From Nonlabens ponticola (lineage in GTDB: Bacteria > Bacteroidota > Bacteroidia > Flavobacteriales > Flavobacteriaceae), in contig NZ_CP034549.1 in assembly GCF_003966335.1 (NCBI RefSeq), positions 210,001 to 242,000 on the forward strand: 32,000 nucleotides of DNA. The letters run 5' to 3'. The position numbers were made by a program, and so were the translations under genes. Under the pieces are notes generated by a model that saw nothing but the letters and a program-made list of their open reading frames with translations, was not told the DNA's origin and did no database searches. Position 1 is the first letter of the stretch. Every line of letters starts with the position of its first letter. Of the stretch, positions 3,522 through 30,443 are shown in pieces.

Positions 3522-3553
3522 TTCCACTAACTTTAAACGATAACCACACCATC

Positions 3554-5517: not shown

Positions 5518-6278
5518 TGAAACGAGGCGGCAAAATCAGAATATTCATAGGACTAGCGATAGTCTTATTTGCTCTATATCAATATTACTCTAGTGCGACG
5601 ACTAATGAATTTACAGGCGAGAAACAGTATGTGGACCTAACTACCGAGGAAGAAATTGCGCTAGGACTTCAGGCAAAACCCAGCATGATGCAACAGCACG
5701 GTGGCTTACTTCAAGATATCGAGGCTCAAGCGCTAGTAGATCAAGTAGGTGCTCGACTTATACAAAGTTCTATAGCTAGTGATACCGATTACAATTGGGA
5801 ATTTCACTTACTGGCAGATAGTCAAACGATTAATGCATTTGCACTACCTGGCGGACAATGTTTTATCACCGCAGCCATGTACAACCAGCTTGAAAATGTG
5901 GATCAGCTAGCTGGCGTTATGGGTCATGAAATAGGTCATGTTATCGCTCGCCACAGCGCAGAGCGACTAGAACAACAGAAACTATCACAAGGACTGGTTA
6001 CAGGCGCATCAGTTGCTGTTGAAGGTGGTGGACAAATGGCAGCTGCCGTGACTCAAATGGTCAATATGAAGTATGGTCGTGAGGACGAATTGCAAAGTGA
6101 TGATCTAGGTGTGAAAATGATGATGGATGCAGGATTTGATCCATACGAAATGGTAGGTGTGATGGAAATCCTAAAAGCAGCTGGTGGGCCCAACCGCACA
6201 CCAGAATTTCAAAGCACGCATCCAGATCCTGATAATAGGATTGAAAAGATCAAAGAATCGATAAGGAAATATCAGTAG
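5517..6278 (+). CDS. M48 family zinc metalloprotease, membrane-anchored
   Basis: N-terminal TM segment IRIFIGLAIVLFALYQYY. HEIGHVIARH (HExxH) lies about 115 residues after the N-terminal TM segment, followed by a downstream ELQSDDLG block. The start overlaps the upstream stop (TAATG). Confidence 0.85.
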   Translation: MKRGGKIRIFIGLAIVLFALYQYYSSATTNEFTGEKQYVDLTTEEEIALGLQAKPSMMQQHGGLLQDIEAQALVDQVGARLIQSSIASDTDYNWEFHLLADSQTINAFALPGGQCFITAAMYNQLENVDQLAGVMGHEIGHVIARHSAERLEQQKLSQGLVTGASVAVEGGGQMAAAVTQMVNMKYGREDELQSDDLGVKMMMDAGFDPYEMVGVMEILKAAGGPNRTPEFQSTHPDPDNRIEKIKESIRKYQ

Positions 6279-13000: not shown

Positions 13001-13653
13001 TTTGAAACTGTAAGAGTGAACGCGTCCTTAGGCATTGTGATTCCGTAAGCACTGGTTTTGTAAAATTCCAGCGCTTCTTGCGCGAGAATATCCAGCAAAC
13101 TAGGTCGATACTTGCGTGATAGCGGATTGATATTCATGATCACATCATAATCGCCGGCAGGAACTTTGGCCAGCTTGTCTGATTTTTCAAGTGACGCTTG
13201 AAATAAATCAGAAAGTCGAGCATAAAATGTCTTGATATCCCACGTCTTAAAATCATCTCCAGCATCATCCATGGCTGTGCGGTTATTGATGCGATAACGA
13301 TTTGCCGTCAAGTATTGCTCTAACAATTGTGCCTTGAGCGAGATGTAAATATTGCTTTCTGGAAACGAGCTTCCATCAATTTGCTTATCAAGCTCATTAA
13401 TGATGTTTACTTGAGCATTTTCTACATTGATCAATTTGAATTTTGATCTAAACAAAAAGACTTTGATCAATTGAGCATCGTCATTTTTGCGGTTGGCTTT
13501 CTTGTAGATGTTGTCTAATATCTCACTGGCGTCAGTGATATTATTCTCAACTTCAAGCTTCTCGACTTTACGCCACAACTCGTTATAATCCTGCGCTATT
13601 ACAGCATTAATTCCACAAAGTAACACAACCAGACCTGCAATAAAATTTCTCAT
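7075..13653 (-). CDS. Giant alpha-2-macroglobulin family protein with thioester motif and an internal CarboxypepD_reg + TonB-Plug (SusC-like) module
   Basis: The track ORF opens GTG-TTG-TTT-ATG. I take the ATG at 13653 (MRNFIAGLVVLLCGINAVIAQ, a signal peptide). The thioester-type motif YEHECAEQT places CAEQ at 8701..8712. The C-terminal region is A2M-complement/receptor-like. Residues around GKVTDASGEPILGATVIVSG...VVVTGYRTTS...LQGQVAGLEI...IRGAASL...PLYIVDGK...IQEVAVLKDAGATAIYGSRGSNGVIIISTKEG (about 9460..10053) match SusC N-terminal modules. Confidence 0.85.
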   Translation of the reverse strand: MRNFIAGLVVLLCGINAVIAQDYNELWRKVEKLEVENNITDASEILDNIYKKANRKNDDAQLIKVFLFRSKFKLINVENAQVNIINELDKQIDGSSFPESNIYISLKAQLLEQYLTANRYRINNRTAMDDAGDDFKTWDIKTFYARLSDLFQASLEKSDKLAKVPAGDYDVIMNINPLSRKYRPSLLDILAQEALEFYKTSAYGITMPKDAFTLTVSNAFLPTQEILNLKRPVNDTIYSKYDVLRLYAQLEQLHKKRKETAPFLSIINERFNYARSQISSSQEIAEFENGIQHLIYEYAAVPEVTLLQYSLAQYYYTVSKNGETEEQKAYRTNAIKLAKSAIEKYPETLGSVNCTNLLSIIYAPKLSTQLQQNVLPNQPYRGVTSYQNVTHATVYFIRVPHDFDRIKGNRDSIHNAYFQKAREKNNFAQIKKLNLPQGDDTFLHTYEFALSGMDMGTYLVLLNANDQKKMKAGSVLKVTDIALTTSMTSNQTTITATSRNTGKPLTNVSYNIYRGNKSYTSFHGKTDKNGQVDFTLPRRYYQYSLEAINQGDTVRTSLSRGYFSKYRESDYRNVKVYTYLDRAIYRPGQKVYYKSILVENKNGESKVVSNKKLTVTVDNASGDEVFETAVETNEFGSVNGSFILPEDGLTGSFSIDIDYDDEDSYWDLIDDFDAGYVSFKVEEYKRPRFKTEFEPVTQTYVFGDSVTVTGKAKALLGSNITGAQVIYNVTQAIHNVPDSDNIPYLRRTYSHEPDPIIATDTITTDASGKFDITFKSGEKIANDVDLRNLIYNYTIDVSVTDVNGETRKAYTGVRVGEKPIEIKMLVQGPISVENNTVKLQAQNLNGEVVKANIELQVRRSSAADHVVIEDQLNDAKFHELSVEEYRKMFPYAELRKEEQLEDWKDAPILFKKTTTTDSLATIELPITREWKNGTYILYAKAVEADNNLSLEKEEDFVDEKRDVEIWANKDRPAQPSIVTHSAIYNDDQAVVDFYTSADGVFMYLTTYDLKKVIDTRWIYLNNGKTTMSFPMKNINGRTLKFQYSVQKLGQFTSQQFEVTKPVAPRQQFTIATQTFRQKLYPGEPEEWSFTIKDQDKTSMQAEVLASMYDKSLDEFATKAWRGIGLYNYAGVLEIEKPRSLLASQSINVFYHFLQNPKPTLNDDRESFNLHGLSFENFDYYYGNYKRGIQRKFINFKPEIGFIVGKVTDASGEPILGATVIVSGNDDSVTTDFDGNYKIKANIGDTIEYTFSGYDEKTITAGSLVQNAVLSASLEAVVVTGYRTTSRRMSNVASTTISSDMEEVQAESALQGQVAGLEIITSSGQPGANSMVKIRGAASLNGSAEPLYIVDGKIVDEATFKALNPNDIQEVAVLKDAGATAIYGSRGSNGVIIISTKEGVTAADLANQAAAFQQIEVRKNLNETAFFLPELYTDKDGNLKFSFTSPEALTLWKFRLFAHNKQAQTAQFEGLVRTQKELSLVPNPPRFLRETDTIRFSTKIANLSGKIMNGKATLQLFDAITMQPIDEKLGNNKSVKNFDAPINGNASVDWTFHVPIGTQAVTYRVLATAGNFSDGEENTLPVLTNRMLVTESRALWVRSGETASVTMDKLANTTSSTRANHQLTFEYTSNPSWYAIKSLPYLMEYEHECAEQTFSRFYANSVAAHVLNSNPKVKDVFDSWAANDGLKSNLEKNEELKSIILAHTPWLRDAQSEAEKQQRLATLFDLDKTAREKKKILAQLEAKQLSSGYFPWFSGGSKSEYITRHIAAGIGHLNQLNINDGDRPQTDRMYNNAIKALDKDWKDRFERHLRNNKTLDKFNFGMSYWHYQYARSFGNDNSLSGLLKDGRELAFAKAKSSYSSQSIYQQLLMAISLYRNGQQQLAQKIVEGLPQTAVNSPENGMYWKENTNGYNWYSSDIETQALAIEVFTELDRDKKEVEELKVWLLQNKRPNRWKSTKATADATYALLLQGNKWLDVKENTQIKWAGKAIPDSLMNAVQKEAGTGYFKVSLNDKAVTPDYATVEVKNKSEVPSYGGLYWQYFENLDKITIDDDLPMSVKKKLFKKINTDTGQKLIPITANDPLTIGDLITVRIEIRSTKDLDFVHLKDMRASGFEPVDVLSKYKYHDGLGYYQSTKDVATNFFFDQLRPGTYVFEYDVRAYNAGQFSNGITQLECMYAPEYSSHSEGIRVVIEE
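8096..8109. repeat. Palindrome copy 3, GCTTTCGCGAAAGC
   Basis: Exact match. Left flank ATTTT, right flank TAAC. Lies inside the minus-strand A2M gene, where it reads AFAKA. Confidence 0.97.
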
Positions 13654-13764
13654 AAACAACACTTAACTTTTAAAAATACTCAATCTCACGATGAACTGTC
13701 AATGGATGCTGGCACAATTAGCATACCGCATCTGCTTTGGTATCCTTTTTGATATTTTTGAAAC

Positions 13765-15694: not shown

Positions 15695-17065
15695 ATGCGC
15701 GTACACTTTATCGCGATAGGCGGCAGCGCCATGCACAATCTTGCTATTGCCCTACACCTTAAAGGCGACCAGGTTACTGGTAGCGATGATGCGATTTTTG
15801 AACCTAGTAAATCAAGACTTAAAAAACATGGTCTCCTACCAGATACTATAGGCTGGGATAACTCGCGCATCGACGATTCTATAGATGCCGTGATATTGGG
15901 AATGCACGCTAAGGAAGATAATCCAGAATTGCTCAAGGCACAGGAACTGGACTTGAAAATCTACAGCTATCCTGAGTATCTATACGAGCAATCCAAAAAT
16001 AAAACGCGCGTCGTTATAGGTGGATCGCACGGTAAGACCACTATTACTTCAATGATTCTGCACGTGATGCATTATCACGATAGAGAAGTTGATTATATGG
16101 TAGGTGCACAACTAGAAGGTTTTGAAACCATGGTACACCTTACTGATGATAATGAATTCATGGTACTGGAAGGCGATGAGTATCTCTCGAGCCCCATAGA
16201 TCGCAGACCTAAGTTTCATCTTTATCAACCTAACATCGCTTTAATCTCTGGTATTGCATGGGATCACATCAACGTATTTCCTACCTATGAGAACTATGTA
16301 GAGCAGTTTGAGATCTTTGTAGATCTCATGAAACCTGGTAGCATTCTCGTTTATAATGAAGAAGACAAGGCAGTCAAACAAATTGCAGAAGAAGCCAGAA
16401 AACCAACCAGAAAACATGCCTACAGTGTTCCAGATCATAGCATTGATAACGGTAAAACCTTTCTAGAAACACCAGAAGGCGATATGCCGCTGGAGATTTT
16501 TGGAAAGCACAACCTGAGTAATCTTGCAGGTGCCAAATGGATTTGCCAACACATGGGCATCGACGAAGATGCCTTTTATGAAGCTATCGCGACTTTTAAA
16601 GGTGCCTCAAAACGTCTTGAAATGGTTGCTGAAAGCAGTTACAGTGTTATTTATAAAGATTTTGCACACTCGCCTAGTAAGGTAAAGGCAACCACAAACG
16701 CCATACACAATCAGTACAGCGAGCGCAAGATCATAGCTTGTCTGGAACTACACACGTTTTCAAGTCTGGATCCTGTGTTTTTACAGGAGTATGCGAATGC
16801 GCTGGATTGCGCAGATGTTGCCGTAGTTTTTTACAGTCCAGAAGCGGTTGAGCTCAAACGCCTAGAACCTGTAACTGCGGAACAAATCAAAGAGGCCTTT
16901 GATGATGAGAACCTCATCGTCATGACAGATCCTGCGGCATTTAAAAGCTGGCTGTTTTCGCAAAACCTGAATCAAGCAGCCTTGCTACTCATGAGCAGCG
17001 GCACTTATGGTGGTTTGGATTTTGACAGATTAGGAAGCCTCGTGGATCCTTTAAGCAAGCGATAA
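15695..17065 (+). CDS. mpl: Mur ligase family protein, Mpl-like (UDP-N-acetylmuramate:L-Ala-gamma-D-Glu-mDAP ligase type)
   Basis: 456 aa with blocks collinear with E. coli Mpl: MRVHFIAIGGSAMHNLA, VTGSD, the GGSHGKTTITSM P-loop, EGDEY, WDHINVF, FAHSPSKV and LELHTFSS. I cannot exclude that it is a MurC-type paralogue. Confidence 0.75.
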   Translation: MRVHFIAIGGSAMHNLAIALHLKGDQVTGSDDAIFEPSKSRLKKHGLLPDTIGWDNSRIDDSIDAVILGMHAKEDNPELLKAQELDLKIYSYPEYLYEQSKNKTRVVIGGSHGKTTITSMILHVMHYHDREVDYMVGAQLEGFETMVHLTDDNEFMVLEGDEYLSSPIDRRPKFHLYQPNIALISGIAWDHINVFPTYENYVEQFEIFVDLMKPGSILVYNEEDKAVKQIAEEARKPTRKHAYSVPDHSIDNGKTFLETPEGDMPLEIFGKHNLSNLAGAKWICQHMGIDEDAFYEAIATFKGASKRLEMVAESSYSVIYKDFAHSPSKVKATTNAIHNQYSERKIIACLELHTFSSLDPVFLQEYANALDCADVAVVFYSPEAVELKRLEPVTAEQIKEAFDDENLIVMTDPAAFKSWLFSQNLNQAALLLMSSGTYGGLDFDRLGSLVDPLSKR

Positions 17066-18835
17066 TTAAACGATGCCCATTTTCTTAAGCAGGAAACTCG
17101 CATTCATATTTTGGGCGACGCCATCTTTAAAGGTGTAGTCAAAAAACAGCTCGTCATTGATGATTTGCGCATCAAAGTAATAATTACTGATCTTCTCATA
17201 CTCATGGGCAACCTCAGTCAAGCTTAGATCGTGTGTGGCGATGATGCCTGTGGCTTTATTCTGGGTAAGTCGTTCAATGAGTTTTCTTGAGCCGCTGGCT
17301 TTATCGACGCTGTTGGTTCCTTTTAAAATTTCATCGAGAACGATCAAGTATTTCTCATCTTCCAGTTTATCAACAATGTATTTAAGACGTTTGAGTTCGC
17401 TAAAAAAGTAGGACTCATCATCCTGCAAACTATCGCTGGTGCGCATGCTAGTGATTAATTTGATCGGTGCATATGTTGCCTGTTTTGCACAAAGCGGTAA
17501 ACCAACATTTGCCATGATGATAGAGATGGAAACGGTTCTCAAAAAGGTGCTCTTACCAGCCATGTTAGCACCTGTGATTATATAAAACTCACCTTGCGAA
17601 ATATGAATATCATTACCAATAGCTTTCTCTGGATCTAGTAATGGATGTGCAGCATCTTTTGACTTCAGCTCAAAATCGCCTGATTTTATGTCTGGAAATA
17701 CATAATCAGGATGATTGTAGGCAAAGTTGCCTAGTGAGCTGATAGCATCCAGCTGGGCGACCGTATCCAACCATGGTTTTATGAATTGCTTATTTTCCAT
17801 GATCCACGATTCGATGGAATGTACTTGCTTGAGATTGTACAGCCCAAATCCATTGACAAAAATCCCTAGCAACATATTGCTGCCTTGATCTAGCCGAGTT
17901 ACTGCCTTGCTGAACTCCAACAATCTTTTTGAGGCTGGTTTGCCATCGGTCAAGATCTCTTTGCGCAAATTGATCAAAACCTCGCTTTTTACCTCTAGAT
18001 TCTCGACTAATTGTAACAACTTACCGTACTGAAGGAAGAAACCTTCCAGCTCGGATAAATATTTATCTAGTGATACTATTCTAGCAACGTATTTACCTGT
18101 AATACCAAGACCTAGCAACAGCAAGGCTACAATCCAGTATCCACTTATCAAGTCCAACGAATACAAAACAATGGACAAAACAGATAATGCAAACTGCAAA
18201 TAACCTAACCATGAGAATATTTGAGGAACAAAGGGCTTATAATCCTTAATCCAATCAATTACCGAAACTGGCCTGATCTTATTATCAAGCAATCTTGCCG
18301 TGGCCTCAAATTCTTGTCGATAATCCAATTGATCGGCTAACTCTTCTACGGCTTGCTGTCTGGAAACAATATCGTTGGTTTGATTAGCGAGCAGCTTCTC
18401 GATTAGAGCCTCACTTCCGTTTTTTAGTGCCGTTCGATTGATGTACTGATAAAAGGATCCAGCACCCAACAAATCAATATCTCTAGAATATTCGTGATCT
18501 TCTATTTGATGTTCGGCGCCATCTGGTAAGTCATTGTATTCTCGATTCAGCACTCGTAGTTCTCGCTCATTAATCTCTACAACTTGCTGGTGGTAAGCGC
18601 GTTTTTGTTTGAGGTCTTCGTGTCGGGAAACTAAAAACAAAAACAACGCAATTGTTGCAATAAAAACGATCGCCACATAAAGCCATTGCAGCCATAAGAA
18701 ATACACAACAGCTATCGCAATCACAAAAATCACTAAGCGCACAAGGCTTGATAACCTCAACTGTTTGGTGATGGTACTCACCTCAGCTTCATGTGTATTA
18801 ATTCTTGATTTGTATGAGTTGATGATATTTTCCAA
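17066..18835 (-). CDS. MutS-related ATPase (MutS domain V) with N-terminal transmembrane helices
   Basis: 589 aa. The apparent start codon is TTG at 18835, with no early in-frame ATG. It has two N-terminal TM segments and two more mid-protein. Walker A is ITGANMAGKSTFLRTV, Walker B is LDEILKGTN, and ATHD is present. Its stop codon abuts the mpl stop with zero spacer. Confidence 0.8.
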   Translation of the reverse strand: MENIINSYKSRINTHEAEVSTITKQLRLSSLVRLVIFVIAIAVVYFLWLQWLYVAIVFIATIALFLFLVSRHEDLKQKRAYHQQVVEINERELRVLNREYNDLPDGAEHQIEDHEYSRDIDLLGAGSFYQYINRTALKNGSEALIEKLLANQTNDIVSRQQAVEELADQLDYRQEFEATARLLDNKIRPVSVIDWIKDYKPFVPQIFSWLGYLQFALSVLSIVLYSLDLISGYWIVALLLLGLGITGKYVARIVSLDKYLSELEGFFLQYGKLLQLVENLEVKSEVLINLRKEILTDGKPASKRLLEFSKAVTRLDQGSNMLLGIFVNGFGLYNLKQVHSIESWIMENKQFIKPWLDTVAQLDAISSLGNFAYNHPDYVFPDIKSGDFELKSKDAAHPLLDPEKAIGNDIHISQGEFYIITGANMAGKSTFLRTVSISIIMANVGLPLCAKQATYAPIKLITSMRTSDSLQDDESYFFSELKRLKYIVDKLEDEKYLIVLDEILKGTNSVDKASGSRKLIERLTQNKATGIIATHDLSLTEVAHEYEKISNYYFDAQIINDELFFDYTFKDGVAQNMNASFLLKKMGIV

Positions 18836-22301: not shown

Positions 22302-23252
22302 ATGATATACCGTCTCTTTTTAATCTTATTTCTAGCTGGAACCCTTGCCACTAGCGCAGCCGATAAATTACCAATGGTAGATATGTCTGTTGAGAGTAAA
22401 GAGGTTCTAACTTTTCAAAATGCTAAGCTCCAATTGAATCTTAAAAATCAATTGATGGCTAATCCAAAGTGGAGATCGCTTATCAATCAAAAGCGCTTAT
22501 CGTTAAGTATTGTCGATCTCAATGATCCAGATAACATTAAATACGCGAGCATCAATGGTGCAAACATGATGTATGCAGCTAGCTTGCCGAAAATCGCAGT
22601 ATTATATGCGGCCATGGACGCCATCGAGAATGGTGAACTAAAAGACACACCTAAAGTGCGTCAAGACATGTGGCTCATGATATCTAAGTCAAATAATGCA
22701 GCGTCTACACGTATGATTGACCGAGTAGGTTTTCAGAAAATCGAAGACTTGATGTGCGATCCTACAAATCCATTTTATGATAAAGATGGTGTTGGTGGAT
22801 TGTGGGTTGGTAAACGATATGCAGCCCAAGGAAAACGCAATCCAGAACCTATCAAAGGTTTAAGTCACGCTGCCACTACAGACGCTGTTGCAAAATTTTA
22901 CTACCAACTTGCTACTGGTCAATTGATCAATGAGCAACGCAGTAAAGAGATGCTAGACATCATGGAAAATCCTAGCCTGCACCACAAGTTTGTGAATACG
23001 CTTGATCGTATTGCACCACAAGCACGCTTGTTTAGAAAAAGTGGATCATGGAGAAACTGGCACAGTGATTCCATTCTGGTTTGGGGCGACAATGGACGCA
23101 AGTATATTCTTGTGGCGTTGGTAGAAGATCCTGCAGGTGAAAACATTATTAGAAGTTTAGTAAAGCCAGCGGAATTGGCGATGCGCAAATCTGTTATCTT
23201 GCCTACACTACTTGATACAGAAGATGGAGCAACTATCCAACAGGGTACGTAA
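22302..23252 (+). CDS. Secreted serine hydrolase, class A beta-lactamase fold
   Basis: Signal peptide MIYRLFLILFLAGTLATSAA. Motifs occur in the canonical order: S-x-x-K (ASLPKIA), S-x-N (SKSNNAAS) and K-S-G (RKSGSW). Confidence 0.75.
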   Translation: MIYRLFLILFLAGTLATSAADKLPMVDMSVESKEVLTFQNAKLQLNLKNQLMANPKWRSLINQKRLSLSIVDLNDPDNIKYASINGANMMYAASLPKIAVLYAAMDAIENGELKDTPKVRQDMWLMISKSNNAASTRMIDRVGFQKIEDLMCDPTNPFYDKDGVGGLWVGKRYAAQGKRNPEPIKGLSHAATTDAVAKFYYQLATGQLINEQRSKEMLDIMENPSLHHKFVNTLDRIAPQARLFRKSGSWRNWHSDSILVWGDNGRKYILVALVEDPAGENIIRSLVKPAELAMRKSVILPTLLDTEDGATIQQGT

Positions 23253-26049
23253 AATATTTGACATTAGGAGTGGCGAGCTTTCGATCTCGTTGCTCATGCA
23301 ACTATACATTTTCTTAATCATAAGTGCATTGCTCGTAGTAAAACCTACGGTCAATGCACTTTTTCTTTCTGAGCTAGGAGCGGATGCTCTTGCCGAGGCT
23401 TTTATTATAATCGCAGTTGCCGCTGTAGTAGGTTCCTTTCTATATAATAGATCGCTTGAGCGCTTTAAACTCAAGAAACTTATACGTGGTACATTAATCG
23501 TTTTTACGGTTATTTTTTCCATCATGGGCGTGCTCGTCATGCTGGGCAATTTCGGGCCTATTCTTGCCTATTTTTTCTATACGACCGTCGCACTATTTGC
23601 GTTGCTGGCGACCTCCCAATTTTGGGTGATGGCAAATGTGGTCTTCAACGTACGTGAGGCCAAAAGACTTTTTGGTTTCATAGGAGCTGGTGGTATTGCC
23701 GGTGGTATTGTAGGTGGTTACATGACATCATTGCTAGCTGAATCGTTAGGAAATGGAGCCTTATTGATTATTGCTGCTGTTTTGATCGCATCATGTATTT
23801 GGGTGATGAATGCCATTTGGCGTACTCGAGTCAATAAGTTGAGTAGTTTTAAGCGCAAGGAACGAGCTACGGTAAGTAGTGAGAATAGCGTCAAGCTTAT
23901 CCTTAATTCAAAGCATTTGACGGCTCTTGCGGCGGTAATTGGTATAGGTGTTCTTGTCGCAAAGCTTGTTGACTATCAATTTAGCTATATATCATCGCGA
24001 GCGATTCCAGATTCACAGGAATTGGCATCCTTTTTTGGTTTCTGGTTCTCGACATTTAATATTGTATCGTTAGCAATACAGCTATTTATAACCAGACATA
24101 TTTTATCTCGATCAGGTGTTAGCGCAAGTTTAGGAGTGCTGCCGTTGGGATTAGTATTGTGTGGCATTGCCCTACTATTAGTTCCAGAACTCTGGATCGT
24201 TGTCGTTATGAAAGGTCTAGATGGTAGCCTTAAACAATCATTGCATAAAAGTGCGGTAGAACTGCTTGCCTTGCCCATCCCTAGCGATGTAAAAAATAAG
24301 ACCAAAACCTTCATCGATGTAGTTGTAGATAGCCTTGCCACAGGCCTTGCTGGATTGATACTCATATTTATTATACGCGCCTTTGACCTAGCACCAGCAT
24401 ATATAACCGTACTCATCATTCTACTGGTAGTGGCTTGGGTGATCATGATTATTAAAGTGCGCGACGCCTACTTTGGTACATTTAAAGAACAGATCATTAC
24501 TCGTGAGCAAATTAAGCTAGAGAAACGATCCAATACGCGCATACGTAATAACATGCGCGTCATTTTTGAATCTGGTGGTGTTGAAGATATCATGTACATG
24601 CTTGCTCGCGTACCAGAACTAGCCCATAAGTCGCTTAAGAATCCGCTGGTCAAATTACTTGTGCACAAAAACCCAAAAGTTAAAGCAGCTGCGATACGAC
24701 AACTTAAGCACGTAGATCGTGGTCAGCCTTTAGGTCAAGTTCAAGATTTGATCTATGAAAAAAATGACGAGGTCGTTCTTGCAGCGATGCAATACCTCAT
24801 GTCTAAGGATACTAAATATCCTGAACAATTCTTTGAAGCCTATCTAGATCACGAGAGTGATTATATCTCAAGTGCCGCGCTGCTATGCCTTGCCCAAGAG
24901 ACTGAGGATAATCCAAAATTAGCATCAAAATATAATCTTGACCTGCGCATCAATCTCTTTCTAGATGAACTGGATCGCCATGAGGACAACTTCCGTAAAG
25001 GTGAGATCATTGAATTAATAAAGGCAATAGGATATGCCAAAGGTGACAACCGCCACAAGTTTATACTGCGCTATCTTAAAAATCCTGATGAGGATCTTCA
25101 TAAAGCAGCCTTGGTCGCTGCAGGAAACACTTCTCATGAACGATTTCTTCCTATTTTACTCGATGAATTAAAGGAAGCACGCTTTCGCGAAAGCGCAATC
25201 AAAGCCATCTCATCCTATGGCAACAGCATTATCAATTATTTAAAAAAGCGTTACACTGACCCTAGCGCAGCGCTGGCTCACAAGAAATACATTCCAGATG
25301 TGTTGATAGATCTGGGAACTAACAAATCTCTGCGTGCGGTATTGCAATTGACTCAATCCGGTAGCCCAGAGATACGCACGCGTACCACCGACAAATTATA
25401 TAATTATAAAAAGGCCAATGGTGATTTAGAAATACCACAAAAAATATATGCCCGATTGATACGTCAGGAATGTGATGAATACATGACATTACAGCAATGC
25501 TATTACAGCCAGCGCGTGGTAGAGCGTTCTAAACTACATCCTGAACGTGTTATAGATATAACTGAGACAGGCTCACGTGAAGAGCTGATTAAACTTTTAT
25601 CTAAACGTATGGATGACGGTATCAAGCGCATCTTTAATATCCTTGCATTGCATTTTAATACAAGGGATGTCTTTATCGCTTTTAAAGGATTGACTAGCGA
25701 GAAAAAGGAAACAAGATCTGCGACGCTAGAGTTTATGGAAGGATTGATAACGCGCAACTATAAGTCACTACTCTTTCCAATATTAGAACAAGGTATCAAT
25801 AATGCAGAGATAGATCCCAACACAGTTGCTGATCGCGTACAACTATTAGAAGAAGATAAATGTTACTTACGAATGCTGGATACGGAAGATCGCAAGCTAG
25901 GATTACTTACCATCCAGATTATTGCAGATTCTTCAAATAAAAAGTGGTTGCCCATACTTGTACGAGCAACCACTAATAAGGATTCTAAAATCGCTGCCGC
26001 TGCATCGCGTGCCTACCAGCAAATGAGCGGTGTTTCACGCACCGCGTAA
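23224..26049 (+). CDS. Polytopic transporter (ATP:ADP antiporter/Npt-like, MFS-type) fused to a C-terminal HEAT-repeat domain
   Basis: The track start at 23212 is TTG. I take the ATG at 23224 (MEQLSNRVRKIFDIRSGELSISLLMQLYIFLII...). About 12 hydrophobic helices fill the first ~430 aa. About 500 aa of helical repeats follow (NPKVKAAAIRQL, NDEVVLAAMQYL, DEDLHKAALVAAG, ESAIKAISSYG, SPEIRTRTTDKL, DSKIAAAASRAY). The N-terminal pattern resembles the COG3202 Npt1/Npt2 family, recalled from memory. Palindrome copy 7 encodes RFRES. Confidence 0.7.
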   Translation: MEQLSNRVRKIFDIRSGELSISLLMQLYIFLIISALLVVKPTVNALFLSELGADALAEAFIIIAVAAVVGSFLYNRSLERFKLKKLIRGTLIVFTVIFSIMGVLVMLGNFGPILAYFFYTTVALFALLATSQFWVMANVVFNVREAKRLFGFIGAGGIAGGIVGGYMTSLLAESLGNGALLIIAAVLIASCIWVMNAIWRTRVNKLSSFKRKERATVSSENSVKLILNSKHLTALAAVIGIGVLVAKLVDYQFSYISSRAIPDSQELASFFGFWFSTFNIVSLAIQLFITRHILSRSGVSASLGVLPLGLVLCGIALLLVPELWIVVVMKGLDGSLKQSLHKSAVELLALPIPSDVKNKTKTFIDVVVDSLATGLAGLILIFIIRAFDLAPAYITVLIILLVVAWVIMIIKVRDAYFGTFKEQIITREQIKLEKRSNTRIRNNMRVIFESGGVEDIMYMLARVPELAHKSLKNPLVKLLVHKNPKVKAAAIRQLKHVDRGQPLGQVQDLIYEKNDEVVLAAMQYLMSKDTKYPEQFFEAYLDHESDYISSAALLCLAQETEDNPKLASKYNLDLRINLFLDELDRHEDNFRKGEIIELIKAIGYAKGDNRHKFILRYLKNPDEDLHKAALVAAGNTSHERFLPILLDELKEARFRESAIKAISSYGNSIINYLKKRYTDPSAALAHKKYIPDVLIDLGTNKSLRAVLQLTQSGSPEIRTRTTDKLYNYKKANGDLEIPQKIYARLIRQECDEYMTLQQCYYSQRVVERSKLHPERVIDITETGSREELIKLLSKRMDDGIKRIFNILALHFNTRDVFIAFKGLTSEKKETRSATLEFMEGLITRNYKSLLFPILEQGINNAEIDPNTVADRVQLLEEDKCYLRMLDTEDRKLGLLTIQIIADSSNKKWLPILVRATTNKDSKIAAAASRAYQQMSGVSRTA
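25181..25194. repeat. Palindrome copy 7, GCTTTCGCGAAAGC
   Basis: Exact match. Flanking C and G extend it to 16 bp. Lies inside the HEAT domain of the plus-strand transporter gene, where it reads RFRES. Confidence 0.97.
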
Positions 26050-26052
26050 TTA

Positions 26053-27300
26053 CTATGAATCTTCTCGTATAGCTTTATCGATCGCACTTGCTAGATACAT
26101 GTGATCGCTTGCACTATTCTTCCCTAATATATTTGACATCAAACAGACGATGTAATTGGTTCCATCTGGATGCTCTACCATGATTACACTGTTCATGTAA
26201 TTGAAGTTCGTACCCATATACTTGCCGCCACCACCACTGTAGTAACTACCAGACTTAAAATATACCGCTGCATCATTCAATCTTGAGCTGTAGGCATAAC
26301 GTATCCTACGATCTGTCATATACATTAATCGCTTTAATTCAAGGCTTGTTTGCTTGTCTACAATATTGCCTTTTTCCAGCTCGATGAACCATTTCATAAG
26401 ACCTTTAGGTGTACCAATACTGCCGCCTTCACGACCCACGTATTTATTAGCACCACTCGTGAAGAATTTACCTAGTCTCCACTCGTCCTCACCTATTCCC
26501 ATTTCTCTTAACGGGTCATTTACAAGACCTATAGCAATATCAGTAAGCTCACCGCGATCTGCGTTGTCAAAAAACTCGTCTGCTTCTTCTTGTGTGAGGT
26601 CAAAGTATTGATCCCCAAAAATATTCATCAACAATGCTTCTCTCCATACAATACTAGCAGCGCCGTTATTACTAACACTTAGCATGTGATCAACCCATTC
26701 ATATAGGCTAAATTCATCACTTGCTACTACTTTTCTCTTTACAAAACGATCTTTTTCTGGATCGTAAACAGGAACCGTGTGATGGTCATACAAACCCCAA
26801 TTTCCAGCGCGCACTACTTTGTTTTTCATAAGTCGCGTACGCACCCCAAAATCTTCTGGGCACAATTTGCCCAGCTGAGTAAAAAAGGCTGTTGCCACGG
26901 CTAGTTTACCAACGCTTCCTGGTTGAAAACCTTGGTTCTCGTTCATCTCTGCATAGCGCGTATTATCAGGATCTGTAATATCTAATACGGTAATCGCATA
27001 ACCGCTACGTCGAGGAAACAATCGCGTCATTTTATCTTGAAAAGTCTCATCGACCGTCATGAATTTCTCTGTTGCTGTAGAATCCATGGTGGTAGAATCT
27101 TCACATAACCATAGATTGAATTGATCGTGTAGCTTGAAAGAGCCTGGTCTTAGGTAATACTCGGTAATCGTACTATCTAGCGTTTTTTCGAGACGCTTTA
27201 ACCGTTTTATACCAGTCTTTTCATATCCATCGATTGGATAAAAAGCCATGGTAATTACGGCTATGAGTAATACTGCTGGTATTGTTATTTTGTTTCTCAA
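26053..27300 (-). CDS. Secreted or membrane-anchored serine hydrolase, class A beta-lactamase fold (paralogue of 22302..23252)
   Basis: 415 aa. The start codon is TTG at 27300, overlapping the upstream TGA (TTGA). N-terminal hydrophobic anchor ITIPAVLLIAVITMAF. Motifs S-x-x-K (GSVGKLA), S-N-N (VSNNGAAS) and K-S-G (FKSGSY). Confidence 0.75.
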   Translation of the reverse strand: MRNKITIPAVLLIAVITMAFYPIDGYEKTGIKRLKRLEKTLDSTITEYYLRPGSFKLHDQFNLWLCEDSTTMDSTATEKFMTVDETFQDKMTRLFPRRSGYAITVLDITDPDNTRYAEMNENQGFQPGSVGKLAVATAFFTQLGKLCPEDFGVRTRLMKNKVVRAGNWGLYDHHTVPVYDPEKDRFVKRKVVASDEFSLYEWVDHMLSVSNNGAASIVWREALLMNIFGDQYFDLTQEEADEFFDNADRGELTDIAIGLVNDPLREMGIGEDEWRLGKFFTSGANKYVGREGGSIGTPKGLMKWFIELEKGNIVDKQTSLELKRLMYMTDRRIRYAYSSRLNDAAVYFKSGSYYSGGGGKYMGTNFNYMNSVIMVEHPDGTNYIVCLMSNILGKNSASDHMYLASAIDKAIREDS

Positions 27301-30215
27301 GATTTTATCTTTTTATGTAAGTATAATTCGGTATTCAAATTGACATCTTCATCAATGGATGATAGGTACTCAGAATTAGTGGCTTGATCATTCTCTACAA
27401 ATGGTCTTATCTGGAATAAATAGAGCTTATCATCCTTGAAGCCCAATTCAATATCCCACGCTCCTTTATAAGAACCATTCTTTGATCCAGGCATGGTGGC
27501 GTGAGCTTCCTTGGCAAATTCTCTGATCGTTTTAAGGTCCTTTTTTGTCAGGATACTGTTGTCAAAATCCACATGCTCCATAACAGATCCACCAGTGTCT
27601 GGCAATCGTCTACGCTTATTCTCACGTGCTGGTGAGATTAATAGACCATCGCCATCTTGATTGACTAAATATGTTTCTGCAGCTTGACCATCAACCGCAC
27701 CACCAGCGCCACGACTCATGGCAACGGTTACACTATTCTCGTCGTTGTTGATAAAGTCTTTAGTAATCAAAACACCGCTGTAATCCACATCTACTGTAGG
27801 AATAATTAAGATCGATGGATAAACATTTTCAGGATTTTCAAGATATGCCTGTCTCCATTTAAAGCTGCGCTCCGTGTAAGGTGATGCCCATACATCCTTG
27901 ATTCCTTTAATGATTTTCTCGCGCTCAACTGCGTTAAAAACAGTTAGATTCAGTCCAGCGCCGGTAAACTCTTCTAGGTCTTCCATATTGGTATCACTAC
28001 GCAAAAACACAGGTACATCACCCATGGAACCACCCAATACGTTTTTAAAATCACTTTCCAGCTGACCTAAAAATGCTGGTTTCAATTCCATCTTATTGAT
28101 GGCATCTCTCAACTTAGAAAATTCTGCTAGCTGGTATTTGATGACCTCTGATTCGTCGAGATCATTGCCTCGCATGGTTTCTGCGGTTTTGAAAATCTCA
28201 GTTAGATATTCCCAATACGTTTGACCACGATCAGGCATTTGTTGATTCATGTGATCTTTGAATACACCAAAGGGTATTACAATCCCATTAACTACGTGTT
28301 GCGGGAACAGTTGCTTCAGCTGCCCTAGATTGGCGGCTTTTGGACCACTTAAAATTCCACTGTCCGCGCTGCTCACCTCACTCATATTAAGCGGCATAGT
28401 GCCGTTTAATTTTAATTTGCCTTCTGGAATGCGTATAGTTTTCTTTTCTTTTCTTTCAGAGCCAAAAAGATCGCGTTCCTCGCCACTCATCTCATCGACC
28501 TCTTTGAGAACCACAGTTCCTCGCGGACTCACCGCATAGAATACTTGCTTACCATCTAGCGACTTTAAATCATCGAGATTGTCAGTAGAGATGGCCGCAT
28601 TAGGTATTCCTAGATTACGAGCCAGCAATTGAACGTGAGACACTAAGTTACCTTCACTAACAGTTGCGATACCGGCTACAGGTTTCAAATCACTCGGTGG
28701 TCTGTCAAAAAGGTAGATCTTGTTAGGATCAACGGTCATGCCTTCGGCATTTCCTTCCACTACGACTAATTCGCCTTTAGCATATCCAGCATTCAGTCCT
28801 CTTATGGTACTAGCGTTATCTACAGCCTGTACTTGGCTTGTCAATCCTATTTGTCTTGAAACTAGCGCGCCAAGGTTGCCAATGGCATCACCCAGCGGCA
28901 ATAACAAAGAACTACGTATGCGATCGTCGAGGAAACCATAAGCTTTAGGTTCAAATTCCATATAACGCTCCACATCATCACCGTAAATAGCATTTACCAT
29001 TCCTGTACCCCATTCTACCTGACTGCGTGCAGCGCTGATAAATTTGAGTAACTCGCTAGCCTTGATTGTCTCACCTTCTGCTTTGAATAATTGATTTTCA
29101 ATAGCATTCCATTCCCATTGCTCTACATATCCAGCTGCTGCCAGCGCTTCACTCAAGGAATGAACTTTATCCAGGTGATCTTGCAATGTCTCTGGTTCCC
29201 ATTGTGCGGTTTTTTGAAAAATTAGTTCTTCCAGTCTCAAGCTCAATTCTAGAGCAGATGTTCTGCGAGTTCCGCGTTTATCATCCTTTATATTCGTGCG
29301 TATATCGCACATCAAGTTTGCCGTAGCAGGTATCAATACAGATGGATTTGTCTCATTAGAGTAGGATTGAGAAAACTGTTCAGCTTGCTTTCTAATATAT
29401 GAATCCTGTGGCCAATCGCTCACCATTTTTTGAAGCTCAGAGACTGCAACAGGTTCAAAAAATTCCTGCATAATGTCAACGAGCTTGTCAAATTCTTCTC
29501 GTTGCTTAAAGCTTAACTTCTCATTGTTTTCCTTTACCCATTCCTGTACAGCGATGATATCTTTAGCCTCTGGATTACCATGTATTTTGATACGTATGTC
29601 CATGAACTTAGGGTGACGCTCTGCAAGTGTTTTACTCAAACTGCGCACTTCTTGTGCGAGGTTTGTATCACCATCATGCGGTAGATCTCTTAAGCTTTCA
29701 CGCACTAGAAAGAAGTCGCGATCAATAATCTCATCGCTGCCTAAAACGGTATAATAAAACTTGCGACCCCATTCCTCTTCATCCTCAATTTGTTTGGCAC
29801 CTCGATAAAACCTACTGCGCTCTTGTATCCAGCCATTGTCGGCAGCAACCAGGAAATTATTAAGTTGGTATTGCTTTAAACGGCTGTGGTTATTCGGGCC
29901 GTCCCAGAATTCCCATAAATCTGCAGATGCCAGTATCTCACCAAAGAAGATGTGCTCTTTGTCTGCAAGACGCTTGACCTCATCCTTATAACTTGCATGC
30001 TGGATGCCACCACCTATGGCATCTGGACATGGATCCTTAGAGCCACGGCGCGATCCATCGGCACAGAACCATTCTATACGCTTGTACGGTCCACGATCCA
30101 GTTGCCTGTAATCGTCGATCATCGCCTCAATACGGTCGTTTGTAAATTCTTGAGCAGTTGATTCCAGACAGCAGCACGCCATCAATAAAATCAGTGGTAG
30201 TAACAATTTATTCAT
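27297..30215 (-). CDS. PEP-utilising enzyme family protein: signal peptide + unknown N-domain + swivel His domain + C-terminal PPDK_N ATP-grasp domain
   Basis: The track ORF starts at TTG 30380. The internal ATG at 30215 gives a canonical signal peptide, MNKLLLPLILLMACCCLESTAQ. The swivel domain is GIATVSEGNLVSHVQLLARNLGIPNA, with the His codon at 28635..28637. ATP-grasp blocks are GPKAANLGQL, LRSDTNMEDLEEFTGAGLNLTVFN, VWASPYTERSFKWRQ, RGAGGAVDG and WDIELGFKDDKLYLFQIRP. Confidence 0.8.
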   Translation of the reverse strand: MNKLLLPLILLMACCCLESTAQEFTNDRIEAMIDDYRQLDRGPYKRIEWFCADGSRRGSKDPCPDAIGGGIQHASYKDEVKRLADKEHIFFGEILASADLWEFWDGPNNHSRLKQYQLNNFLVAADNGWIQERSRFYRGAKQIEDEEEWGRKFYYTVLGSDEIIDRDFFLVRESLRDLPHDGDTNLAQEVRSLSKTLAERHPKFMDIRIKIHGNPEAKDIIAVQEWVKENNEKLSFKQREEFDKLVDIMQEFFEPVAVSELQKMVSDWPQDSYIRKQAEQFSQSYSNETNPSVLIPATANLMCDIRTNIKDDKRGTRRTSALELSLRLEELIFQKTAQWEPETLQDHLDKVHSLSEALAAAGYVEQWEWNAIENQLFKAEGETIKASELLKFISAARSQVEWGTGMVNAIYGDDVERYMEFEPKAYGFLDDRIRSSLLLPLGDAIGNLGALVSRQIGLTSQVQAVDNASTIRGLNAGYAKGELVVVEGNAEGMTVDPNKIYLFDRPPSDLKPVAGIATVSEGNLVSHVQLLARNLGIPNAAISTDNLDDLKSLDGKQVFYAVSPRGTVVLKEVDEMSGEERDLFGSERKEKKTIRIPEGKLKLNGTMPLNMSEVSSADSGILSGPKAANLGQLKQLFPQHVVNGIVIPFGVFKDHMNQQMPDRGQTYWEYLTEIFKTAETMRGNDLDESEVIKYQLAEFSKLRDAINKMELKPAFLGQLESDFKNVLGGSMGDVPVFLRSDTNMEDLEEFTGAGLNLTVFNAVEREKIIKGIKDVWASPYTERSFKWRQAYLENPENVYPSILIIPTVDVDYSGVLITKDFINNDENSVTVAMSRGAGGAVDGQAAETYLVNQDGDGLLISPARENKRRRLPDTGGSVMEHVDFDNSILTKKDLKTIREFAKEAHATMPGSKNGSYKGAWDIELGFKDDKLYLFQIRPFVENDQATNSEYLSSIDEDVNLNTELYLHKKIKS

Positions 30216-30316
30216 TGTCTCAAAAATATGTTTATCCACAGCACGAGCACCGCTGTTTAAGAGCAGTTTAACTCGCTGTAGTGCTCCATAGTTGCGATGA
30301 TGATGGTGGTTATTTT

Positions 30317-30330
30317 GCTTTCGCGAAAGC
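30317..30330. repeat. Palindrome copy 8, GCTTTCGCGAAAGC
   Basis: Exact match. Left flank ATTTT, right flank GTAAC. It lies in the probable divergent promoter region 30216..30443, and only the unlikely TTG-extended ORF would translate it (LSRK). Confidence 0.97.
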
Positions 30331-30443
30331 GTAACTTTCCTACAAAAATTTAAAAACGAATAACCCGTGATCAAAGTCAATATTACCCTTTAATTAACAT
30401 GGCATGTTTGACAAGCGATTTACCTTAAACCAAAAATTTAACC

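What the first reader, a model, noticed from the sequence alone, without database searches (positions are those of the whole stretch)
22302..30215. Convergent four-gene cluster: exported PEP-utilising/ATP-grasp enzyme, nucleotide-antiporter-like HEAT fusion, and two paralogous beta-lactamase-fold hydrolases
Operon A (plus strand) holds a secreted serine hydrolase (22302..23252), which overlaps by 29 nt a transporter-HEAT fusion (23224..26049). Operon B (minus strand) holds the PEP-utilising enzyme (30215..27297), translationally coupled by a TTGA overlap to a second serine hydrolase (27300..26053). The two operons end 3 nt apart. Each carries one copy of the same hydrolase family (SxxK / SNN / KSG), which argues that the pairing is functional rather than accidental. 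Three of the four products carry export signals, including the ATP- or PEP-dependent phosphotransfer enzyme, and nucleotides are normally unavailable in the periplasm. The fourth product resembles ATP:ADP antiporters. My speculative reading is that the transporter supplies nucleotide to the envelope, where an exported phosphotransferase and two acyl-serine hydrolases modify or detoxify a substrate. Candidate substrates are a cell-wall fragment, a beta-lactam-like compound or a rifamycin-like compound, the last by analogy with rifampin phosphotransferase, which uses the same ATP-grasp and swivel-His chemistry. I know of no characterised system with this composition.
Basis: inference. Interest (0 to 1): 0.85.

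Follow-up and report, generated by a model that had tools for sequence, protein, structure and literature searches.

The report
Exported dikinase with nucleotide-carrier gene module
Four neighbouring genes form a module conserved across several bacterial phyla: a secreted ATP-dependent phosphate-transfer enzyme, two secreted penicillin-binding-protein-like hydrolases and an ATP/ADP-carrier-type membrane transporter, which suggests, without proving it, that some bacteria deliberately supply ATP to the space outside the inner membrane.

Summary
The window is Nonlabens ponticola.

The pairing is not accidental. In 80 Flavobacteriaceae loci only these four families are conserved. The same four recur, in shuffled gene orders, in Margulisbacteria and in proteobacterial-type metagenome contigs, including single co-directional operons.

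- **D** has this layout: signal peptide, then a 450-aa helical domain with no Pfam or PDB match, then a swivel phospho-His domain, then an ATP-grasp domain. This is the domain order of glucan,water dikinases. It is not the order of PEP synthase or rifampin phosphotransferase.
- **B** belongs to the uncharacterised NTT-HEAT family.
- **A** and **C** are paralogous hydrolases. A is PBP-A-like and lacks a conserved Glu166 equivalent.
- A lipoprotein acid phosphatase/5'-nucleotidase is a fifth member of the cluster in some lineages.

My best reading, at about 0.5 confidence, is that the carrier exchanges cytoplasmic ATP for spent periplasmic nucleotide. That ATP would fuel an exported "X,water dikinase" acting on an envelope substrate that A and C also process. 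The substrate is unknown.

The rifamycin and beta-lactam resistance reading is poorly supported. I found no paper describing such a system.

The parts
22302..23252 (+). A: exported class-A-beta-lactamase-fold serine hydrolase, PBP-A-like, 316 aa. Motifs S94xxK97, S130xN132, K246SG248.
   Evidence: ORF. PF13354 at 8e-22. Motifs invariant in 17 orthologues including distant phyla. Best solved relative is PBP-A Tll2115 (2j9o), E 4e-7. Signal-peptide-like N-termini in 60 orthologues.
23224..24513 (+). B, membrane domain: TLC/NTT-family (ATP/ADP-carrier-type) transporter, roughly residues 1-430.
   Evidence: PF03219 at 50.1 bits against cut-off 21. Best PDB hits are plastid NTT1 (9j3j, 5.9e-10) and a second ADP,ATP carrier protein 1 entry (9j3n, 2.5e-5). 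About 11 hydrophobic segments, with a K/R-rich central loop and K/R-rich C-terminal flank. It shares 23-28% identity with the HEAT-less TLC genes found in distant D clusters.
24541..26049 (+). B, C-terminal HEAT-repeat domain of about 500 aa, predicted cytoplasmic. Together with the membrane domain this is an NTT-HEAT fusion.
   Evidence: HEAT_2 at 8.7e-16 with 5 stretches. The NTT-HEAT architecture is described but uncharacterised in PMC5381601. The HEAT domain is absent from the partner TLCs outside Bacteroidota.
26053..27300 (-). C: exported, enlarged paralogue of A, 415 aa. Motifs S129xxK132, S210xN212, K349SG351. Translationally coupled to D.
   Evidence: ORF. PF13354 at 2.8e-8. hhalign against the A family gives 98.6%, E 9e-16. 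An invariant 'YPxDG' follows directly after AXA-like cleavage sites. C lies immediately downstream of D in 75 of 80 Flavobacteriaceae loci, and in all 22 metagenome loci with enough flank. TTGA overlap shown.
30150..30215 (-). D: Sec-type signal peptide, MNKLLLPLILLMACCCLESTAQ|E.
   Evidence: A positive n-region, a hydrophobic core and an A/S/G-Q end are conserved in 16 close homologues, in 79 loci and in 73 of 83 full-length representatives down to 25% identity. This is a heuristic reading; no SignalP-type predictor was available.
28806..30149 (-). D: N-terminal domain, residues 23-470. It has a small beta subdomain carrying the conserved Cys51/Cys63 pair and a large helical bundle. Presumed to bind the substrate.
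   Evidence: No Pfam hit. The AF2 model has pLDDT 94.4 and pTM 0.90. No PDB fold match: best E 0.087, all TM-scores below 0.25. There are 452 representative clusters, and nearly all full-length members are about 930-1040 aa with this domain starting at residue 25-60. The Cys pair and many Arg/Lys/His/Glu residues are nearly invariant in 79 sequences.
28416..28823 (-). D: swivel phosphohistidine domain, catalytic His527 in EGNLVSHVQLLARNLGIPNA.
   Evidence: It aligns to PEP synthase 8a8e residues 373-467. PF00391 hits all 10 diverse segments tested, three of them above the gathering score. Nine of the 10 also weakly match GWD1_pHisD PF22973. The His is present in 74 of 79 sequences.
27366..28388 (-). 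D: C-terminal ATP-grasp nucleotide-binding domain (PPDK_N).
   Evidence: PF01326 at 89 bits against cut-off 27. Foldseek hits the Rph ATP-binding domain 5hv1/5hv6 at 1.6e-13 and PEP synthase 2ols. The GPKAANLG, RSDTNxED, DxE and FQIRP motifs are invariant.
30221..30228 (-). TATTTTTG, a match to the Bacteroidota -7 promoter motif TAnnTTTG, 5 nt upstream of D's ATG. This is a tentative promoter element.
   Evidence: Sequence read. The consensus is recalled from my own knowledge. Conservation and significance were not tested.

Best explanation
The four genes encode one envelope-located functional module.

D is exported by the Sec pathway. It works as an 'X,water dikinase'. Its C-terminal ATP-grasp domain binds ATP, the swivel His527 picks up the beta-phosphate, and the phosphate is delivered to a substrate held by the novel N-terminal domain. 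The expected by-products are AMP and Pi.

ATP is not normally available outside the inner membrane. I propose that the co-conserved NTT/TLC-family carrier B, here fused to a cytoplasmic HEAT domain that may regulate or scaffold it, exchanges cytoplasmic ATP for periplasmic AMP/ADP. A membrane potential that is positive outside favours export of the more negatively charged ATP.

The two exported PBP-A-like acyl-serine enzymes, C (stoichiometrically coupled to D) and A, act on the same substrate. This would parallel phosphorylation-assisted polymer turnover by plant glucan,water dikinase together with hydrolases and phosphatases. The substrate is most likely an envelope polymer or its fragments: peptidoglycan stem peptides, or a periplasmic glycan or ester.

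Shown here: the module is real and conserved; D's domain architecture and catalytic motifs are intact; export signals are conserved; the partner is a TLC-family carrier.

Inferred only: D's actual localisation, the direction of transport, the transported species, the identity of the substrate, and the roles of A and C.
For: 1. Conservation.
- Only D, C, B and A are conserved in 80 Flavobacteriaceae loci.
- The same four families co-localise in distant lineages with different gene orders. L082 (Margulisbacteria) has D->C with a convergent TLC->A. L091 has TLC->A->D->C co-directionally. L088 has a D->C->TLC operon. L083, L085, L089 and L092 carry all four.
- Of 22 metagenome loci with enough flank, C is present in 22, A in 19 and TLC in 14.
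- ORF clustering of 92 non-flavobacterial loci again ranks D, C, A and TLC on top.

2. Export.
- Signal-peptide-like N-termini occur in 73 of 83 full-length D representatives and in all listed A and C orthologues.
- D has a conserved Cys pair. Most C proteins carry a Cys-flanked loop.

3. D looks catalytically competent. The ATP-grasp motifs and the swivel His are invariant.

4. B and its HEAT-less counterparts all pass the TLC gathering threshold, and their best PDB matches are ATP/ADP carriers.

5. A lipoprotein HAD-IIIB acid phosphatase (the class B/C acid phosphatase and 5'-nucleotidase family) sits inside the cluster in 11 loci. This fits periplasmic nucleotide or phospho-ester turnover.

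6. The domain order (substrate domain, then pHis, then nucleotide domain) equals that of glucan,water dikinases (PMC5575247; PF22973 hints).
Against: - There is no experimental evidence of any kind. Localisation rests on sequence heuristics only.
- B scores far below the NCBIfam AAA-family cut-off (38 bits against 387). Its substrate could therefore differ from ATP/ADP.
- TLC is missing next to D in about a third of well-flanked loci. A and B lie more than 10 kb from D and C in about 14 Flavobacteriaceae loci.
- A dikinase yields AMP, and no characterised NTT is known to me to exchange ATP for AMP.
- ATP could leak out through outer-membrane porins.
- The N-domain has no recognisable relatives, so the substrate is a guess.
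- Periplasmic beta-lactamase-fold enzymes need not act on peptidoglycan. EstG is an example.
Confidence: 0.5

Rival explanations
1. The carrier is linked to the module but does not supply ATP. It might import the phosphorylated, possibly nucleotide-like, product made by D, A and C in the periplasm. Alternatively it might export a different nucleotide or cofactor that D or the hydrolases need.
For: B is a divergent TLC member: TIGR00769 gives 38 bits against a cut-off of 387. Identity to the partner TLCs is only 23-28%. Characterised NTTs carry varied nucleotides and NAD (PMC5381601). Phosphatases in the cluster could also belong to a scavenging route.
Against: D keeps every ATP-grasp nucleotide-binding motif. 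It therefore needs a nucleoside triphosphate wherever it is located. No other nucleotide source is encoded in the cluster.
Confidence: 0.15
2. The module is an antibiotic-resistance cluster: a periplasmic Rph-like phosphotransferase plus two beta-lactamases that detoxify rifamycin-like or beta-lactam compounds.
For: The best structural matches of D's ATP-grasp domain are rifampin phosphotransferases. A and C belong to PF13354 Beta-lactamase2 and carry all three motifs.
Against: - NF041857 and NF000283 score 50 and 30 bits against cut-offs of 999 and 1700.
- Only the ATP-grasp domain matches Rph. The substrate domain is unrelated and placed differently.
- A has no invariant acidic residue where Glu166 would sit, and it resembles the DD-peptidase-like PBP-A.
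- The cluster is chromosomal. It is conserved as a core-like unit across many marine genera and several phyla, and no conserved mobile-element genes flank it.
Confidence: 0.08
3. The module harvests energy or nucleotides. D runs in reverse in the periplasm (X-P + AMP + Pi -> X + ATP), or simply processes external nucleotides. The NTT then imports the ATP, as NTTs do in intracellular parasites.
For: All characterised NTTs are importers (PMC5381601). Dikinase reactions are reversible in PPDK (established knowledge). Periplasmic nucleotidase-type phosphatases co-occur.
Against: No plausible abundant high-energy X-P donor is known in the periplasm. This reading gives the two serine hydrolases no role. 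The host organisms are free-living.
Confidence: 0.07
4. D is not exported. Its N-terminal hydrophobic segment is an uncleaved anchor that holds the enzyme on the cytoplasmic face, and the TLC carrier has an unrelated role.
For: No dedicated signal-peptide predictor or experiment was available, so localisation is inferred.
Against: The charge distribution (K/R before the hydrophobic core, acidic or polar residues after it), the short h-regions, the AXA / A-Q ends, and the conserved start of the mature domain all fit a cleaved Sec signal across more than 70 divergent sequences. The co-conserved partners A and C carry the same kind of signal.
Confidence: 0.05

Closest known systems
Alpha-glucan,water dikinase / phosphoglucan,water dikinase (GWD/PWD, plant plastids)
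   Same: The domain order is the same: N-terminal substrate-binding region, then phosphohistidine domain, then a C-terminal PPDK-type nucleotide-binding domain (PMC5575247). There are weak PF22973 GWD1_pHisD matches. Like GWD, the enzyme works alongside hydrolases and, in some loci, a phosphatase.
   Different: D has no CBM45 or CBM20. Its N-domain is a helical fold with no PDB match. D is bacterial, carries a Sec signal, and is linked to a nucleotide carrier. Its substrate is unknown.
Rifampin phosphotransferase (Rph) and PEP synthase / PPDK
   Same: The ATP-grasp domain and swivel-His chemistry are homologous.
   Different: The domain order is permuted. D has no PEP/pyruvate TIM-barrel and no rifampin-binding domain. 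All NCBIfam equivalog scores are more than 10-fold below their cut-offs. Those enzymes are cytoplasmic, whereas D has an export signal.
NTT-HEAT fusion proteins (Major et al. 2017, PMC5381601)
   Same: B has the described architecture, a TLC/NTT domain fused at its C-terminus to HEAT repeats. NCBI annotates it as an Npt1/Npt2 family nucleotide transporter.
   Different: That paper gives the family no function and no gene context. Here the family, or a HEAT-less TLC relative, is tied to an exported dikinase module. I did not test phylogenetic placement inside the published clade.
PBP-A (Tll2115) of Thermosynechococcus, a class-A-beta-lactamase-like penicillin-binding protein
   Same: It is A's best solved relative (2j9o, E 4e-7). 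It shares the SxxK/SxN/KxG motifs.
   Different: The similarity is low. C is much more divergent, with large insertions and no PDB sequence hit. Neither A nor C has a known activity.
EstG of Caulobacter, a periplasmic beta-lactamase-fold esterase acting on periplasmic glucans
   Same: It is a precedent for an exported transpeptidase-fold enzyme acting on a periplasmic glycan rather than on peptidoglycan.
   Different: It belongs to a different branch of the fold. It has no dikinase or carrier partner. I did not test homology to A or C.

Membership tests
PEP synthase / PPDK (PEP-utilising enzymes) | ATP-grasp nucleotide-binding domain (PF01326) | tested here: met
   89.3 bits against cut-off 27, residues 624-950.
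PEP synthase / PPDK (PEP-utilising enzymes) | Swivel phosphohistidine domain with catalytic His | tested here: met
   Aligns to 8a8e residues 373-467. PF00391 hits 10 of 10 diverse segments, 3 above the gathering score; the window's own segment scores 17.5 bits against 23.1. His present in 74 of 79 sequences.
PEP synthase / PPDK (PEP-utilising enzymes) | PEP/pyruvate-binding TIM-barrel domain and the order ATP-grasp -> His -> substrate domain | tested here: not met
   No PF02896 hit. The N-domain has no Pfam hit. The order is N-domain -> His -> ATP-grasp. NCBIfam equivalogs score 80 bits or less against cut-offs of 598-976.
Rifampin phosphotransferase (Rph) | Reaches the NCBIfam equivalog score and has a rifampin-binding domain between the ATP-grasp and a C-terminal His domain | tested here: not met
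   NF041857 scores 49.9 against 999, and NF000283 scores 29.8 against 1700. Foldseek aligns only about 340 columns, the ATP-grasp domain.
Glucan,water dikinase type | Order: N-terminal substrate module -> phosphohistidine domain -> C-terminal nucleotide-binding domain | tested here: met
   GWD layout taken from PMC5575247.
Glucan,water dikinase type | Carbohydrate-binding modules CBM45/CBM20, and a GWD-type pHis domain (PF22973) at the gathering score | tested here: not met
   No CBM hit. PF22973 scores 17.4 bits against cut-off 27. The N-domain has no fold match.
TLC / NTT nucleotide transporters | Pfam TLC (PF03219) at the gathering score | tested here: met
   B scores 50.1 bits against 21. 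Partner TLCs in L082, L083 and L085 score 30-72 bits.
TLC / NTT nucleotide transporters | NCBIfam/TIGR00769 AAA-family cut-off (canonical NTP/NDP exchangers) | tested here: not met
   38.4 bits against 387.2.
TLC / NTT nucleotide transporters | Transport of adenine or other nucleotides | not testable with these tools
   Needs reconstitution or uptake assays.
NTT-HEAT fusion clade (PMC5381601) | NTT domain fused at the C-terminus to HEAT repeats | tested here: met
   Monophyly with the published clade was not tested.
Class A beta-lactamases | SxxK, SxN and KxG motifs | tested here: met
   Invariant in alignments A2 and A3.
Class A beta-lactamases | Omega-loop general base Glu166 | tested here: not met
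   In A, no acidic residue is invariant between S130xN132 and K246SG248. For C the question stays open: E309, D315 and E321 are invariant, but their equivalence to Glu166 is unclear.
PBP-A-like penicillin-binding proteins | Sequence relationship to Tll2115, and DD-peptidase or penicillin-binding activity | tested here: inconclusive
   A's profile hits 2j9o at 4e-7, but only in short stretches. C has no hit. Activity cannot be tested here.
Known anti-phage defence systems | Match to PADLOC models | tested here: not met
   Only a weak generic HEAT-ARM hit for B.

The most novel reading that the evidence does not exclude
Some free-living Gram-negative bacteria keep a dedicated ATP supply line to the periplasm. 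An NTT-type carrier run in the export direction would power a family of secreted His-swivel dikinases. These would phosphorylate an envelope polymer or its fragments so that dedicated PBP-like enzymes can remodel, repair or degrade it. One mechanistically attractive version is ATP-driven activation of peptidoglycan stem peptides or periplasmic glycans, as a bacterial counterpart of starch phosphorylation by GWD. If true, this would overturn the working rule that the periplasm has no ATP-dependent enzymology. It would also give the widespread orphan NTT and NTT-HEAT proteins of free-living bacteria a function.
Probability: 0.4. Interest if true: 0.92.

Novelty: new variant of a known kind. Interest (0 to 1): 0.78.

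Why it matters
The textbook view is that the periplasm lacks ATP. Envelope processes are thought to be powered indirectly, by the proton-motive force, by ABC transporters, or by pre-activated substrates.

Here an ATP-grasp/phospho-His dikinase family is exported throughout its range and is genomically tied, across phyla, to a member of the ATP/ADP-carrier family. I found no paper describing such a system.

If the inferred coupling is right:
- it shows a way of energising extracytoplasmic chemistry;
- it assigns a first function to the NTT-type carriers of free-living bacteria, left open in PMC5381601;
- it defines a new substrate-binding fold;
- it points to an unknown phosphorylated envelope component in abundant marine Flavobacteriaceae.

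The hypothesis is directly testable with standard localisation, transport and 32P-labelling assays.

Tried and rejected
- PADLOC scan of all four proteins found no defence-system match.
- NCBIfam has no model for A or C. For D it gives only far-sub-threshold PEP synthase, PigC and Rph hits.
- Single-sequence PDB searches with A and C found nothing. The profile search with C also found nothing useful.
- The Foldseek search with the full-length D model returned only ATP-grasp matches. A separate, confident N-domain model found no structural relative, so the substrate could not be inferred from the fold.
- Literature searches for NTT-HEAT function, periplasmic ATP or kinases, and exported dikinases found no description of this module. 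The NTT structure paper behind 9j3j/9j3n was not in the library, so I could not check nucleotide-binding residues in B.
- I looked for further conserved neighbours. None exist in Flavobacteriaceae. Outside that family only the HAD-IIIB phosphatase recurs.
- Window neighbours (HemN-like radical SAM, cyclase, acyl-CoA dehydrogenase, Mur-ligase-like, VanY) are not conserved with the cluster beyond Nonlabens. I rejected them as parts of the module.
- I rejected a lipoprotein reading of D's 'LMACCC' and of C's N-terminus, because the Cys is not conserved.
- The topology of the TLC-He_PIG fusions could not be resolved with hydropathy alone.

Full report
**Observation.** The window belongs to Nonlabens ponticola: D is 100% identical to an NCBI protein of that species.
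- A is 22302-23252 (+).
- B runs from the ATG at 23224 to 26049 (+). Orthologues support this start rather than the upstream TTG.
- C is 26053-27300 (-).
- D is 27297-30215 (-).
- A and B overlap by 29 nt. D's stop and C's TTG start share TTGA. B and C end 3 nt apart.

Pfam assigns PF13354 to A and C, TLC plus HEAT_2 to B, and PPDK_N to the C-terminal third of D.

**The hydrolases.** Alignments that include orthologues from distant lineages show invariant SxxK, SxN and KSG motifs in both families. In A these are S94/K97, S130/N132 and K246-G248. In C they are S129/K132, S210/N212 and K349-G351. A profile-profile comparison shows that A and C are paralogues, with C carrying large insertions (98.6%, E 9e-16).

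A's nearest solved relative is PBP-A (Tll2115, 2j9o; E 4e-7). C has none. In A no acidic residue is invariant between motifs 2 and 3, so there is no Glu166 equivalent.

Both proteins start with signal-peptide-like segments. In C an invariant YPxDG follows AXA-like sites directly, which looks like a conserved mature N-terminus.

**The dikinase D.** PPDK_N covers residues 624-950. A profile of 16 homologues also aligns residues 463-551 to the swivel domain of PEP synthase 8a8e. Isolated His-domain segments from 10 diverse members all match PF00391, and nine weakly match the GWD phosphohistidine domain PF22973. His527 is present in 74 of 79 sequences. The ATP-grasp motifs are invariant.

Residues 23-470 have no Pfam match. 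Modelled alone with a 79-sequence alignment, this region gives a very confident model (pLDDT 94.4, pTM 0.90). It has a small beta subdomain and a helical bundle, and it has no PDB fold relative (best E 0.087). The full-length model matches Rph and PEP synthase only through the ATP-grasp domain.

The order is therefore signal peptide, novel domain, pHis, ATP-grasp. This is permuted relative to PEP synthase, PPDK and Rph. It is the same as in glucan,water dikinases, which have N-terminal CBMs and a C-terminal PPDK-like nucleotide domain (PMC5575247). All NCBIfam equivalog scores are far below their cut-offs.

**Export of D.** The N-terminal segment has K/R first, then a hydrophobic core of about 12-18 residues, then an end such as AQ|E. 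It is conserved in 16 close homologues and in 79 loci. A whole-library search with the N-domain found 452 representative clusters, nearly all about 930-1040 aa long with the domain starting at residue 25-60. Of the 83 full-length representatives, 73 have a hydrophobic signal-like N-terminus, and the exceptions look like truncated gene calls. Cys51 and Cys63 are at least 90% conserved. I could not run a dedicated predictor, so export is a strong inference and not a demonstration.

**The transporter B.** B passes the TLC gathering score. Its best PDB matches are plastid NTT1 and a second ADP,ATP carrier protein 1 entry (9j3j and 9j3n). NCBI names it an Npt1/Npt2 family nucleotide transporter. 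It fails the TIGR00769 cut-off. Hydropathy and positive-inside counts place the roughly 500-aa HEAT domain in the cytoplasm. This NTT-HEAT architecture was catalogued by Major et al. 2017 as widespread and functionally unknown (PMC5381601). I found no later characterisation.

**Neighbourhood in Flavobacteriaceae.** A genome scan gave 80 Flavobacteriaceae loci. C follows D directly in essentially all of them. The convergent A->B pair is adjacent in about 60. Unbiased ORF clustering finds only these four families conserved: 79, 75, 61 and 60 loci, with the next family in 15. In about 14 loci A and B are more than 10 kb away. In at least one such genome a B homologue sits on a contig of the same length as the one carrying D, which I infer to be the same contig.

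**Neighbourhood outside Flavobacteriaceae.** Twelve context look-ups of members with 25-34% identity gave the following.
- Margulisbacteria: D->C with a convergent TLC->A (the full-length TLC ORF was checked).
- All four genes in L083, L085, L089 and L092.
- A D->C->TLC operon in L088.
- A co-directional TLC->A->D->C operon in L091.
- D->C only, or D->C->A, in L084 and L090.
- One solitary D.

A metagenome scan seeded with the distant branch gave 80 more loci. Among the 22 with adequate flanks, C is present in 22, A in 19 and TLC in 14. Clustering again ranks D, C, A and TLC first. These partner TLCs lack HEAT, and two carry a C-terminal He_PIG Ig-like domain. Shuffled order with retained membership across phyla is the classical signature of functional coupling.

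**A fifth, facultative member.** In 11 non-flavobacterial loci a HAD-IIIB acid phosphatase (PF03767) with a lipoprotein signal lies inside the cluster next to A or TLC. This Pfam family includes periplasmic class B/C nucleotidases such as AphA and e(P4); that membership is from my own knowledge. It fits either removal of AMP or dephosphorylation of D's product.

**Interpretation.** The most economical reading is an envelope module in which an NTT-type carrier provides the nucleoside triphosphate that an exported dikinase needs. The dikinase would phosphorylate a substrate that the two acyl-serine enzymes also handle.

By established bioenergetics, an electrogenic ATP4-/ADP3- exchanger in a membrane that is positive outside tends to export ATP, as the mitochondrial carrier does. 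For B this is inference only.

The parallel with plant starch phosphorylation (GWD plus hydrolases plus phosphatases) is suggestive. The substrate is unknown. Peptidoglycan stem peptides are suggested by the PBP-A likeness of A. However, EstG shows that periplasmic beta-lactamase-fold enzymes can act on periplasmic glucans instead.

**Rivals.**
- The carrier moves something other than ATP, or imports the product.
- The module is an antibiotic-resistance cluster. This is disfavoured by the membership tests and by core-like conservation.
- D runs in reverse, or the module scavenges nucleotides.
- D is not really exported.

Chance adjacency is excluded by the conservation data.

**Novelty and verdict.** Every component belongs to a known superfamily. 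However, I found no paper describing a module of this composition, D's N-domain has no recognisable relative in Pfam or the PDB, and an exported ATP-grasp/phospho-His enzyme tied to an NTT carrier has no precedent that I could find. I file it as a new variant of known kinds (dikinase, NTT, PBP-like hydrolase). There is a substantial chance that it represents a new physiological principle, namely a dedicated nucleotide supply to the periplasm. Its core idea is supported by comparative genomics. Its specific substrate analogies are not supported.

Noticed in passing
L096:6675-7610, L100:8805-9659, L141:7803-8621, L151:12147-13037, L158:10316-11167, L160:4153-5004, L164:9399-10247, L168:6761-7657 and others: A HAD-IIIB acid phosphatase (PF03767, 2e-44) with lipoprotein-type signal peptides lies inside the D/C/A/TLC cluster in 11 of 92 non-flavobacterial loci, usually between A and TLC. 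It is absent from the window.
   Followed up: partly
L085:4249-5874 and L089:8272-9915: The partner TLC transporters in two proteobacterial-type loci carry a C-terminal He_PIG (Ig-like) domain instead of HEAT. I could not decide from hydropathy whether that domain faces the periplasm.
   Followed up: partly
window 7075-13662 (-): A 2195-aa ORF combines bacterial alpha-2-macroglobulin domains (MG2, bMG3, A2M, bMG10) with an internal CarboxypepD_reg domain and a TonB-dependent-receptor Plug domain. This is an unusual mixture.
   Followed up: no
window 2808-6278 and 15695-17065: Several peptide and cell-wall-related genes lie elsewhere in the window: peptidase S51, two GNAT acetyltransferases, a VanY-type D-Ala-D-Ala carboxypeptidase, an M48 peptidase and a Mur-ligase-family protein (Mpl/MurC-like). 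None is conserved next to the four-gene cluster in other genera.
   Followed up: partly
window 17066-18835 (-): A 589-aa protein has only MutS domain V at its C-terminus and hydrophobic segments near its N-terminus. It looks like a membrane-associated MutS-related ATPase.
   Followed up: no
window 26053-27300 (-), C residues ~355-362: Most C orthologues have a Cys-flanked loop after the KSG motif (CDRSKGxxCGKY), a likely disulfide. In N. ponticola the loop is shortened and both Cys residues are lost (YSGGG------GKY).
   Followed up: partly
window 30216-30380 (-): D's reading frame stays open upstream to a TTG at 30380, giving a 1027-aa ORF. Homologues and the NCBI model start at the ATG at 30215. 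A TATTTTTG match to the Bacteroidota -7 promoter motif lies 5 nt before that ATG, which hints at a very short leader or none.
   Followed up: partly
L073:12915-13508; L057 and L075 (C starts about 1.7 kb after D): In a few Flavobacteriaceae loci an extra ORF or spacer separates D from C, breaking the otherwise universal 4-nt translational coupling.
   Followed up: no
L081:2543-5299: A divergent D-like protein (918 aa, 29% identity in the N-domain) has no precomputed PPDK_N hit. It stands alone on a Bacteroidota-like contig, with no C, A or TLC neighbour.
   Followed up: no
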